Below are positions 11,321-12,653 of a stretch of DNA of 64,000 nucleotides, piece after piece. The position numbers and the translations under genes were made by a program. The notes below the pieces were generated by a model. The model searched no databases, was not told where the DNA came from, and worked only from the letters and a program-made list of their open reading frames with translations. The DNA lies in the NCBI GenBank assembly GCA_048940925.1, contig JBHLOC010000002.1, forward strand, positions 32,001 to 96,000. Direction: 5' to 3'. Each line of letters begins with the position of its first letter. Within the stretch, counting starts at the first letter, position 1. This DNA comes from Promethearchaeota archaeon (GTDB lineage: Archaea > Asgardarchaeota > Lokiarchaeia > Sigyniarchaeales > SOKP01).

Positions 11321-12653
11321 TTAGAAGTAAATGTTATCAAAAATTATTGTTTCCCTTCTATCTGGACCAATAGAGATCATAGCTATATCTACTTGTAACT
11401 CATCTCTGATGGCTTTAATATAAGTTTTCATAGTGTCAGGTAAAGCCTCATATCCTTTTTCTGCTATTTCTAACCATCTATCTCTACTCTTTTCATCCCA
11501 TCCCTCAAATGATCTATAAACTGGTTTGCATTCTTCTATAATCTCATGCTGAATAGGCCAACTTTCAAGTATTTCTCCGTCTAGCTCATATGCAGTACAC
11601 ATTTTTATAGGATTAATTCCTTGAAGGGCATCTAATAAGGTTATAATCACCTTATCAATCCCATTAATCATTATACCATATTTTATATTAAAGAGATCTA
11701 GCCACCCAACTCTGCGTGGTCTTCCTGTTACTGTCCCATATTCATGACCTTGTTCTCGAATTTTTGTAGCAACATCATTAAACAATTCAGTAGGGAATTT
11801 GCCTTCACCCACTCTAGAAGTATACGCTTTAACTATACCTAGTACTTTATTTATCTTTTTTGGCGGAATTCCTGTTCCAGCAGAAATTCCAAGAGCGTTG
11901 GCATTTGAAGACGTACCAAATGGGTAAAAACCATGATCTATACATAACAGATTACCTTGAGCACCTTCAAACACAATTTTTTTACCACTATCTATAGCTT
12001 TATTCAAGTAATATGCTGTATCGGTCACATATTGTTTAATTTGTTTACCATAAGACTTATATTCTTCATAAATAGAGTCTAAATCGACGTTCCAACTTGG
12101 ATCGTACACATGAATTAAATTCTTCTTTATGTTATACAATTTTTCTAATTTAGGTTTTAACACGTCAGGATTAATCAGATCATATATTCTTAATCCCCAA
12201 CGAGCTGCTTTATCAGAATAAGCTGGTCCAATTCCTCGTTTAGTTGTACCAGCTCTATATTCACCCTTCCATTTTTCTTCCAAACCATCTAAAGTGCGAT
12301 GAAATGGGAAAATCACATGTGCAGTAGAACTTAATTTCAAATTGATCTTTTTATTAAGCCTTTTTAAATTTTCAATTTCTTCAAGAAGAACTTTTGGATC
12401 TATCACACATCCATTCGCAATAACACATTCCTTTTCAAGGGGAGCACCGCTAGGAATTAGCTTGAATTTATATTTTATTCCATTTGCTTTTATCGTGTGA
12501 CCTGCATTATTACCCCCGTTGTATCTTACAACAATATCTGCTTTTTGGGCTAAGTAATCGACGAATTTACCTTTTCCTTCGTATGGGGTTAGTATGCGAT
12601 TTGCTTTGCTAAACTCCCCAACTTAAACCCACAACTGCAATACAATTACTCAT
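11321..12653 (-). CDS. purA: adenylosuccinate synthetase, split by a 31-nt insert: join(complement 12614..12653, 11321..12582), 433 aa
   Basis: Spliced N-terminus [43 protein letters not shown]; [31 protein letters not shown]. The ORF-track call starting at 12406 lacks the N-terminus. Confidence 0.95.
12583..12613 (-). other. putative 31-nt BHB-type mRNA intron in purA
   Basis: GGGG-AG|U-UUAG...CUAA-CCCC-AU|A. Removal restores the GAC (Asp) codon and the reading frame. Confidence 0.85.

What the first reader, a model, noticed from the sequence alone, without database searches (positions are those of the whole stretch)
12583..12613. 31-nt bulge-helix-bulge intron splitting the catalytic Asp codon of purA
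Seen: on the minus strand purA reads ATG AGT AAT TGT ATT GCA GTT GTG GGT TTA AGT TGG GGA G[TTTAGCAAAGCAAATCGCATACTAACCCCAT]AC GAA GGA AAA GGT AAA. Unspliced, it hits TAG two codons after GGA. Removing the bracketed 31 nt restores the invariant WGDEGKGK motif and a full 433-aa PurA that has no other lesion. Independently, the RNA folds as GGGG-(AG|U)-UUAG...CUAA-CCCC-(AU|A): a 4-bp central helix flanked by two 3-nt segments. A further exon-exon stem GGGUUUA/UAAAUUC closes a loop on the exon side, so this is a relaxed BHB/BHL form. Established: the archaeal splicing endonuclease EndA cuts after the second nucleotide of each 3-nt bulge, and both cuts required by the protein fall at those positions. 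Known archaeal mRNA introns are rare; crenarchaeal cbf5 is the classic case. Inference: this is a real EndA/RtcB-spliced mRNA intron in a core purine gene of an Asgard archaeon.
Basis: partly seen in the sequence, partly recalled or inferred. Interest (0 to 1): 0.96.

Follow-up and report, generated by a model that had tools for sequence, protein, structure and literature searches.

The report
tRNA-type mini-intron in Asgard purA
The only adenylosuccinate synthetase (purA) gene of this Asgard archaeon is interrupted, inside the codon of its catalytic aspartate, by a 31-base insert shaped like an archaeal tRNA intron. About one in five related genomes keep an insert at exactly this spot, so the mRNA almost certainly has to be cut and rejoined by the tRNA-splicing enzymes, which papers document inside the coding sequence of only one other archaeal gene (cbf5).

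Summary
On the minus strand, purA runs from the ATG at 12653 to G at 12614. A 31-nt insert (12613-12583) follows, and the gene resumes at AC GAA GGA AAA. Unspliced, the frame ends at GTT TAG. Precise removal gives WGDEGKGK and a 433-aa PurA.

- **The gene is real and in use.** It is the only purA in the genome. Contigs of four DNA runs carry the insert. Among insert-bearing orthologues dN/dS is about 0.09.
- **The insert is widespread but polymorphic.** An insert sits at the same site in 30 of 135 genomes of the same Promethearchaeota (Asgard) family. There are 26 distinct sequences of 30, 31 or 32 nt, each with an in-frame stop. The other genomes examined lack it exactly.
- **The cut sites fit the BHB rule.** At the cuts that the protein dictates, 7.6 of 8 BHB base pairs form, against 2.0-4.9 in shifted registers, with compensatory changes.
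- **The enzymes are present.** The genome encodes a catalytic EndA alpha subunit with the crenarchaeal K-P-R loop, a beta-like paralogue and RtcB.

In this genome the motif is the relaxed (HBh') form. No RNA data were available, so splicing itself is inferred. This scan has noted similar mini-introns on other DNA, including in this genome. Verdict: a new member of a known kind.

The parts
12614..12653 (-). purA exon 1 (40 nt): ATG plus 12 codons plus the first base (G) of the Asp codon; encodes [13 protein letters not shown]
   Evidence: It aligns residue for residue with the N-termini of insert-free orthologues.
12583..12613 (-). 31-nt insert, inferred BHB-type mini-intron (phase 1, between G and AC of the Asp codon)
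   Evidence: Same site in 30 of 135 family genomes, 30-32 nt, always with an in-frame stop. Present in contigs of 4 DNA runs.
11321..12582 (-). purA exon 2 (AC of the Asp codon, then EGKGK... to the stop codon at 11323-11321)
   Evidence: for the translation. NCBIfam adenylosuccinate synthase equivalogs NF002223 (E 3e-152) and TIGR00184 (E 1.5e-139), starting at profile position 14 and 10 respectively.
12616..12619 (-). H helix, 5' strand (GGGG, from the Trp-Gly codons of exon 1)
   Evidence: Pairs with 12585-12588. 98.5% of cells paired in 17 sequences; 4 of 4 pairs in 28 of 30 sequences.
12613..12615 (-). 5' bulge A-G|U; the cut dictated by the protein falls after its second base
   Evidence: The Gly codon is GGA in all 30 insert-bearing genes, against 16 of 55 insert-free ones.
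12609..12612 (-). h' helix, 5' strand (UUAG)
   Evidence: Pairs with 12589-12592. All 4 pairs show changes on both sides among relatives.
12596..12604 (-). Hairpin tip: G-C and C-G pairs (12604 with 12596, 12603 with 12597) closing the pentaloop AAAUC
   Evidence: 94% paired in 17 sequences.
12589..12592 (-). h' helix, 3' strand (CUAA)
12585..12588 (-). H helix, 3' strand (CCCC; CCCU in most relatives)
12582..12584 (-). 3' cut segment A-U|A; cut after the second base. In this genome it is not closed by an adjacent exon helix, so it is a loop rather than a bulge.
   Evidence: Helix h (alignment columns 6-11 with 52-57) is unpaired in G000 and G018 and paired in 13-15 of 17 sequences.
12714..12723 (-). 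Candidate TATA-like element (TTTATAATAA) about 65 nt upstream of the ATG; inferred only
   Evidence: A similar TATAATAAT...TTTTGGA stretch stands upstream in many relatives. Not tested further.

Best explanation
The 31 nt at 12613-12583 are a tRNA-type (bulge-helix-bulge) mini-intron in the purA pre-mRNA.

Inferred mechanism:
- After transcription, the exonic GGGG of the Trp-Gly codons pairs with CCCC near the 3' end of the insert, and the insert folds into a short hairpin (UUAG/CUAA plus a G-C tip).
- The heterotetrameric (alpha-beta)2 splicing endonuclease EndA cuts two bases 3' of that 4-bp helix on each strand: after AG in the 5' bulge and after AU in the 3' segment.
- RtcB joins the exons to give GGA-GAC-GAA, restoring the P-loop GDEGKGK with the catalytic Asp.
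- The excised 31-mer is probably circularised.
- Unspliced mRNA ends after 15 codons at UAG.

Shown here: the insert, its conservation and polymorphism at one site, selection on the gene, structural covariation, and the presence of the enzymes.

Inferred: the cutting and joining themselves.
For: 1. The DNA is real. Contigs of four runs carry the insert without indels, and one is a diverged relative with 17 differences in 195 nt.
2. purA is single-copy in a genome scored 100% complete.
3. The gene is kept by selection. Among 16 insert-bearing orthologues the median dN/dS is 0.087 (maximum 0.14) with dS of 0.6 to above 2.
4. The site is the same and the absence is exact. 30 of 135 genomes of the family, in 4 genera, have an insert between G and AY of the Asp codon. 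Every insert-free orthologue examined reads WGDEGKGK (SFGDEGKGK in one) without any scar.
5. Lengths are 30 (12 sequences), 31 (16) and 32 (2), and each has an in-frame stop, mostly at codon +2. No single recoding rule fits all of them; exact removal does.
6. Structure holds at the protein-dictated cuts. Mean 7.57 of 8 BHB pairs against 2.0-4.9 in slid registers. In a 17-sequence alignment 94% of cells are paired against 21-49% slid. Five pairs have changes on both sides, for example UUAG/CUAA to AUAG/CUAU, and 0-1 of 500 shuffles do as well. Inserts of other genera have unrelated sequences but keep the hairpin and H helix, with compensatory changes between G087 and G088.
7. Exon sequence is constrained at the splice site. 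The Gly codon is GGA in 30 of 30 insert-bearers against 16 of 55 insert-free genes. Most insert-bearers also have a 6-bp exon-exon helix next to the 3' cut, with CTC/GAG and CTT/GAA co-varying.
8. The enzymes are encoded:
   - An EndA alpha subunit that aligns with Aeropyrum pernix alpha (3p1z_B, E 4e-33) and keeps Tyr/His/Lys and the K-P-R of the crenarchaea-specific loop. That loop confers cleavage of relaxed BHL motifs (PMC3241643).
   - A second paralogue that lacks the catalytic His.
   - RtcB.
   - Asgard EndA was classed as (alpha-beta)2 with this loop in PMC5829648.
9. EndA is heavily used in this genome. ARAGORN calls introns in 22 of 34 tRNA genes.
10. My own scan found a second case in the genome. 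A 30-nt insert with 8 of 8 Watson-Crick BHB pairs in an EF-2-family gene restores ...MTDSD|DEEQERGITI....
Against: No RNA was available, so neither the spliced junction nor a circular intron has been seen.

Thermodynamic prediction is weak for this genome's copy:
- In 81- and 121-nt contexts the BHB fold is not the minimum. It lies 2.4 kcal/mol above it, with pair probability about 0.05, and competes with GGGUU/AACCC pairing.
- Z-scores of local folds are modest, -1.5 for G000.
- The 3' cut site here lacks an adjacent closing exon helix, so cleavage depends on the enzyme accepting a relaxed motif. That has been shown for crenarchaeal enzymes, not for an Asgard one.
- U12620 can pair with A12584, which would shorten the 3' segment.
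Confidence: 0.88

Rival explanations
1. Translational recoding: ribosomes pass the insert by a programmed +1 frameshift at GUU-UAG, or by hopping from the GGA codon as in phage T4 gene 60.
For: A stop codon follows the Gly GGA codon closely and a hairpin lies behind it, which superficially resembles the gene 60 take-off site.
Against: Orthologous inserts are 30, 31 and 32 nt long. Twelve of them keep the frame but carry an in-frame stop, so no single frameshift rule works. A +1 shift here would insert 10 residues and lose the catalytic Asp. A hop from GGA to the next GGA would delete D-E-G from the P-loop, and that landing codon is missing in relatives that read GAG GGG. The helices that co-vary are those of a BHB motif with cuts at the canonical offsets.
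Confidence: 0.02
2. A disabled gene: the insert is a mutation and purA is a pseudogene or is dispensable in these lineages.
For: As annotated from DNA alone the frame is broken. Insert-free relatives show that the gene works without the insert.
Against: There is no second purA in the genome. There is no other lesion in 433 codons. dN/dS is about 0.09 among 16 insert-bearing orthologues at saturated dS, so the gene has been kept for a long time with the insert in place. The insert itself evolves under structural constraint.
Confidence: 0.03
3. The insert is removed from the RNA, but by something other than EndA/RtcB: another nuclease-ligase pair or a self-cleaving activity.
For: The enzyme has not been tested. 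The 3' site of this genome's copy is not a textbook bulge.
Against: 31 nt is far too short for group I or II ribozymes, and there is no Rfam match. Both cuts lie exactly two bases 3' of a 4-bp helix, which is the EndA rule. The needed enzymes are encoded.
Confidence: 0.05
4. Assembly or sequencing artefact.
For: The genome is a metagenome-assembled genome with 8.4% estimated contamination.
Against: Contigs of four runs from four studies, as listed, span the insert with no indel. 29 other species-level genomes carry homologous inserts at the same site.
Confidence: 0.01

Closest known systems
BHB intron of the cbf5 (pseudouridine synthase) pre-mRNA in Crenarchaeota (Watanabe 2002; Yoshinari 2006; Yokobori 2009, PMC2738675)
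   Same: A short intron inside an archaeal coding sequence. [quoted passage not shown] The BHB motif is often relaxed, with cuts after the second base of each bulge. The host has a hetero-oligomeric EndA. The distribution among relatives is patchy, indicating gain and loss.
   Different: A different gene (purA, purine synthesis) and a different phylum (Asgard/Promethearchaeota, not Crenarchaeota). The length is tightly 30-32 nt. The first exon is very short (40 nt). For cbf5, spliced cDNA and in vitro cleavage exist; here splicing is inferred.
Archaeal tRNA introns at canonical and non-canonical positions (hBHBh' and relaxed HBh'/BHL motifs; Marck and Grosjean 2003, from my own knowledge and as cited in PMC5829648)
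   Same: The same motif geometry: a 4-bp helix and 3-nt bulges cut after the second base. The intron size is in the tRNA-intron range. The same enzymes are presumed. This genome's tRNA genes are heavily interrupted (22 of 34 ARAGORN calls).
   Different: The host RNA is an mRNA, so there is no tRNA body to help recognition. The exonic half of the motif is made of codons (Trp-Gly-Asp-Glu-Gly) and is therefore under double constraint.
46-nt BHB intron in the 5' UTR of Haloferax volcanii HVO_1309 (PMC7714728)
   Same: An EndA substrate within an mRNA, detected as a circular RNA and cleaved in vitro.
   Different: It lies in the untranslated leader, so the protein does not depend on its removal. 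The host has a homodimeric-type EndA and a strict BHB motif.
Phage T4 gene 60 translational bypass
   Same: A short stop-containing gap with a hairpin directly after a GGA codon in an otherwise intact gene.
   Different: There is no conserved matching landing codon, the gap length is variable, and the Asp codon is restored only by exact excision. Tested here and not met.

Membership tests
Archaeal BHB (EndA-spliced) intron | 4-bp central helix H formed across the two splice sites | tested here: met
   GGGG (12619-12616) pairs with CCCC (12588-12585). 4 of 4 pairs in 28 of 30 orthologous inserts. 98.5% of cells paired.
Archaeal BHB (EndA-spliced) intron | 5' splice site in a 3-nt bulge closed by an intron helix h', with the cut after the second base | tested here: met
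   The bulge A-G|U lies between H and UUAG/CUAA. It is the minimum-energy fold of the 51-nt context. All 4 pairs of h' show compensatory changes.
Archaeal BHB (EndA-spliced) intron | 3' splice site in a 3-nt bulge closed by an exon-exon helix h (strict hBHBh') | tested here: not met
   In G000 and G018 the adjacent helix h is unpaired, so the motif is the relaxed HBh'/BHL form. 13-15 of 17 relatives have a 6-bp helix h with one extra unpaired U. The cut still falls after the second base of A-U|A. Relaxed motifs are accepted members of the family where EndA is (alpha-beta)2 with the specific loop (PMC3241643, PMC5829648).
Archaeal BHB (EndA-spliced) intron | Host encodes a splicing endonuclease able to cut relaxed motifs, plus an RtcB ligase | tested here: met
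   Two tRNA_int_endo genes are present. The alpha subunit keeps Tyr/His/Lys and the loop K-P-R, aligned without a gap to A. pernix alpha. The beta-like paralogue lacks the His. RtcB matches at E 9e-167. Activity was not assayed.
Archaeal BHB (EndA-spliced) intron | Spliced RNA and excised (circular) intron observed | not testable with these tools
   No RNA run holds this DNA. A scan of metagenome contigs for the joined form found only insert-free relatives at 77-83% identity.
cbf5 pre-mRNA intron family | Located in the cbf5 gene of Desulfurococcales or Sulfolobales | tested here: not met
   The host gene is adenylosuccinate synthase in a Promethearchaeota genome. It works like the cbf5 intron but is not a member of that family.
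Programmed +1 frameshift | A constant frame offset between the two reading frames at a conserved shift site | tested here: not met
   Inserts are 30, 31 and 32 nt long, and the 30-nt ones are in frame but carry a stop.
Translational bypass (T4 gene 60 type) | Matched take-off and landing codons that give a functional product | tested here: not met
   Landing on the next GGA would delete D-E-G of the P-loop, and relatives reading GAG GGG have no such codon.

The most novel reading that the evidence does not exclude
The purA intron may not be an oddity. It could be one member of a genome-wide population of 30-nt tRNA-type introns in protein-coding genes of this Asgard family, including core genes such as an EF-2 paralogue (my) and, by unchecked notes of this scan, aIF2-gamma, a Rab-like GTPase and others. 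Cutting and rejoining of mRNA by EndA and RtcB would then be a routine step of gene expression in the closest archaeal relatives of eukaryotes. The introns would be gained and precisely lost on short evolutionary time scales. G-rich P-loop codons (GGN GAY GAR GGN AAR GG) would be favoured landing sites because they supply the exonic half of the splicing motif.
Probability: 0.5. Interest if true: 0.9.

Novelty: new member of a known kind. Interest (0 to 1): 0.72.

Why it matters
In the papers I could search, splicing of an archaeal coding sequence by the tRNA-splicing enzymes is documented for one gene only, cbf5 in Crenarchaeota. A further mRNA intron lies in a Haloferax 5' UTR (PMC2738675, PMC7714728). 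I found nothing for Asgard archaea.

- **Biology.** A core purine-synthesis gene in the closest archaeal relatives of eukaryotes would yield no enzyme without mRNA splicing.
- **Evolution.** The intron is present in 30 of 135 genomes of one family and exactly absent in the other relatives examined. That gives a natural series for studying how such introns are gained, kept and precisely lost.
- **Annotation.** Gene callers will report this purA as truncated or as a pseudogene. Metabolic reconstructions from these genomes would then wrongly score AMP synthesis as missing.

Tried and rejected
- **RNA evidence.** No RNA holder was listed for window 12300-12900.
- **Joined form in metagenomes.** A scan of metagenome contigs for TGGGGAG-ACGARGG... 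gave 75 purA loci. The best were only 77-83% identical to insert-bearing genomes, so they are insert-free relatives and not spliced RNA.
- **Genome-wide census of BHB inserts by my own scripts:**
  - A lenient motif plus ORF-joining test gave the same counts for correct and displaced cut sites. It is dominated by chance candidates at gene junctions. One run timed out.
  - A second test on ORFs with long start-less 5' parts showed no enrichment: 13 of 146 against 379 of 3220.
  - It did recover purA and one convincing further case in an EF-2-family gene.
  - I therefore cannot give a count for this genome from my own work.
- **Folding.** The minimum-energy fold of 81- and 121-nt contexts does not give the BHB fold.
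- **Rfam.** No family matches 12300-12900.
- **Same-site inserts elsewhere in the phylum.** With a looser pattern over 400 genomes, the matches outside family f1 looked like chance or ordinary insert-free purA, and control hits were about as frequent.
- **Not tried.** I did not search protein databases with a typed spliced N-terminus, because no RNA run holds the locus.

Full report
**What is in the sequence.** On the minus strand an ATG at 12653 opens 12 codons that end in TGG GGA G (12614). The next 31 nt (12613-12583) bring a TAG two codons later. After them the text continues AC GAA GGA AAA GGT AAA and stays open to a stop codon at 11323-11321. The downstream part is adenylosuccinate synthase: NCBIfam equivalogs NF002223 (E 3e-152) and TIGR00184 (E 1.5e-139) match from profile positions 14 and 10 onward. 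So about 13 N-terminal residues are missing from that frame. The downstream frame has no ATG, GTG or TTG for 72 codons. Joining 12614 to 12582 gives [19 protein letters not shown]..., 433 codons, with the P-loop GDEGKGK. Its Asp is the catalytic base of PurA; this is established enzymology of the E. coli enzyme, from my own knowledge. The boundary is unique because the bases beside each junction differ.

**Is it real DNA, and is the gene alive?** The window lies on a 265-kb contig of a 4.8-Mb genome scored 100% complete with 8.4% contamination. That genome holds one purA only. Contigs of four public DNA runs span the insert with no indel. One of them is a diverged relative with 17 substitutions in 195 nt, four of them inside the insert. 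Among 16 insert-bearing orthologues, exon 2 has a median dN/dS of 0.087 (maximum 0.14), while synonymous sites are near saturation. A pseudogene or an assembly error is therefore excluded for practical purposes.

**Who carries it.** The closest relatives are metagenome-assembled genomes titled Promethearchaeota or Promethearchaeia archaeon. This is the Asgard phylum, and the class holds the Loki-type order Promethearchaeales.
- In the window's genus, a pattern search found 17 of 54 genomes with the insert. A wider pattern, which also accepts GAT for Asp, found 18 of 54.
- In the order, 30 of 154 genomes have it. All are in one family (30 of 135, in four genera), and none are in the 19 genomes of the three other families.
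- A looser search of 400 genomes of the phylum added nothing credible outside that family.
- Insert-free orthologues read ...TGG GGN GAY GAR GGN AAR GG... with no scar.
- On a purA tree of 71 sequences the trait is clustered. It needs at least 8 changes, at least 4 of them forced by well-supported branches, against 14.6 expected when labels are shuffled.
- So one or a few gains were followed by several exact losses, or gains were repeated at one site. This is a gene tree without a good outgroup, so I do not infer direction.

**Why it must be removed exactly.** The 30 inserts comprise 26 distinct sequences of 30 nt (12), 31 nt (16) and 32 nt (2). Every one has a stop in the exon-1 frame, usually at the second codon. 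The 30-nt versions do not even change the frame, so a +1 frameshift cannot be the common solution. In this genome a +1 shift would also replace the Asp by a 10-residue insertion. A gene 60-type hop from GGA to the next GGA would delete Asp-Glu-Gly, and relatives that read GAG GGG lack that landing codon. Only exact excision gives GDEGKGK in all 30.

**The structure.** In the archaeal bulge-helix-bulge rule, each cut lies two bases 3' of a 4-bp helix, on opposite strands.
- In this genome GGGG (12619-12616) pairs with CCCC (12588-12585). The 5' cut follows A-G, and the 3' cut follows A-U.
- The intron hairpin UUAG/CUAA, with a G-C/C-G tip and a pentaloop, closes the 5' bulge. This is the minimum-energy fold of the 51-nt context.
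- Across the 30 inserts, with cut sites fixed by the protein and not by folding, 7.57 of 8 H and h' pairs form. The figure is 2.0-4.9 when the 3' partner is slid by 1-3 nt.
- In a 17-sequence alignment from the genus, 94% of cells are paired, against 21-49% when slid. Five of ten pairs change on both sides, for example UUAG/CUAA to AUAG/CUAU. None or one of 500 shuffles reach the observed values. The sequences are related, so the shuffle count is not a probability; the slid control is the fairer one.
- Inserts of other genera have unrelated sequences, yet they keep a hairpin and the H helix. G087 and G088 differ by compensatory changes in the hairpin.
- The exon is constrained too. The Gly codon before the cut is GGA in 30 of 30 insert-bearers but in only 16 of 55 insert-free genes.
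- Most insert-bearers have a 6-bp exon-exon helix (CCUUUCG/CGAAGG or CCUCUCG/CGAGGG) directly beside the 3' cut. There the synonymous choices CTT/GAA and CTC/GAG co-vary.

- In this genome and its nearest relative the Leu-Ser codons are TTA AGT instead of CTT TCG, and the adjacent exon helix is lost. The same two genomes have an all-G-C central helix (CCCC rather than CCCU). The motif here is therefore the relaxed HBh' (bulge-helix-loop) form.
- In 81- and 121-nt contexts the BHB fold is not the predicted minimum. It lies 2.4 kcal/mol higher, with pair probability about 0.05, because GGGUU upstream competes for the C-run. I count this as a weakness of the thermodynamic evidence. It does not outweigh the comparative evidence.

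**The enzymes.** The genome has two genes with the tRNA-intron endonuclease domain.
- One (198 aa) aligns over its length with the catalytic alpha subunit of the Aeropyrum pernix heterotetramer (3p1z_B, E 4e-33). It keeps the Tyr, His and Lys of the active site. It also keeps, without a gap, the K-P-R of the crenarchaea-specific loop. Lys44 in that loop is needed to cut bulge-helix-loop substrates (PMC3241643).
- The other (200 aa) lacks the His, as expected of a structural beta subunit.
- Asgard EndA was classed as (alpha-beta)2 with this loop in PMC5829648. A 2026 preprint reports two paralogues in 44 of 60 Asgard genomes (10.64898/2026.10.13.758758).
- RtcB is present.
- ARAGORN calls introns in 22 of the 34 tRNA genes it finds, so the machinery is in heavy use.

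**Context.** My own attempts at a genome-wide census failed to separate signal from chance. They did recover purA and one further convincing case on contig C32. There a 30-nt insert with 8 of 8 Watson-Crick BHB pairs restores ...MTDSD|DEEQERGITI... in an EF-2-family gene. Notes of this scan list many similar mini-introns in this genome and in other Asgard genomes. They also list BHB inserts in the purA P-loop of other archaeal phyla, and one case with environmental RNA support. I did not check those notes, apart from the EF-2 case, and I treat them as leads only.

**Comparison with what is known.** The nearest published system is the cbf5 pre-mRNA intron of Crenarchaeota. It too lies between the first and second base of the catalytic Asp codon, often has a relaxed motif, depends on a hetero-oligomeric EndA and shows gain and loss (PMC2738675). 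As of 2020 it was called the only BHB intron reported in an archaeal mRNA, and that study added one in a Haloferax 5' UTR (PMC7714728). My four literature searches found no report of such introns in Asgard protein-coding genes or in purA. The library does not hold most subscription journals.

**Verdict.** The insert is very probably (about 0.88) a tRNA-type intron of the purA mRNA. It is a new member of a known kind, in a new gene and a new phylum. What is missing is sight of the spliced RNA.

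Noticed in passing
G000 contig C32, bases 27895-27924 (gene on the minus strand); outside the window: A 30-nt insert with 8 of 8 Watson-Crick BHB pairs splits an EF-2-family gene. 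Removal restores ...HIDHGKTT...MTDSD|DEEQERGITI...
   Followed up: partly
L031 1453-2049 (minus strand) and L032 1210-1812 (plus strand), that is G000 contigs C58 and C18: Two EndA paralogues. One has the Tyr/His/Lys triad and a crenarchaeal-type K-P-R loop. The other has lost the catalytic His. This is consistent with an (alpha-beta)2 enzyme.
   Followed up: partly
whole genome G000: ARAGORN finds only 34 tRNA genes, 22 of them with predicted introns. Among them are a tRNA-SeC call and a 'tRNA-Stop (tta)' call with a 61-nt intron that is probably a mis-call. The low total suggests more interrupted tRNA genes that the program misses.
   Followed up: no
window 12586-12590 with 12626-12630 (minus strand): GGGUU in exon 1 can pair with AACCC at the intron's 3' end. 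In longer contexts this is predicted to outcompete the BHB fold. It could be a folding trap or a switch; this is unexplained.
   Followed up: no
alignment A2, columns 8-11 and 48 (G000 and G018 against the rest): The two genomes that lost the adjacent exon-exon helix (Leu-Ser codons TTA AGT) are the only ones of the 17 in alignment A2 (the window's genus) with an all-G-C central helix (CCCC instead of CCCU). This may be compensation.
   Followed up: no
run X7, window 12696-12752: Contig depth rises about tenfold and many contigs break, with loose ends, in the AT-rich stretch upstream of purA. This suggests a sequence shared among many organisms or repeated there.
   Followed up: no
loci L199 and L200 (genus g21), L201 (g27), L220-L228 (g28): Inserts at the same purA site in other genera have unrelated sequences. 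In g21 the central helix is GGGG/CUUU, three G-U pairs and one G-C. The site and shape are therefore kept while the sequence turns over completely.
   Followed up: partly
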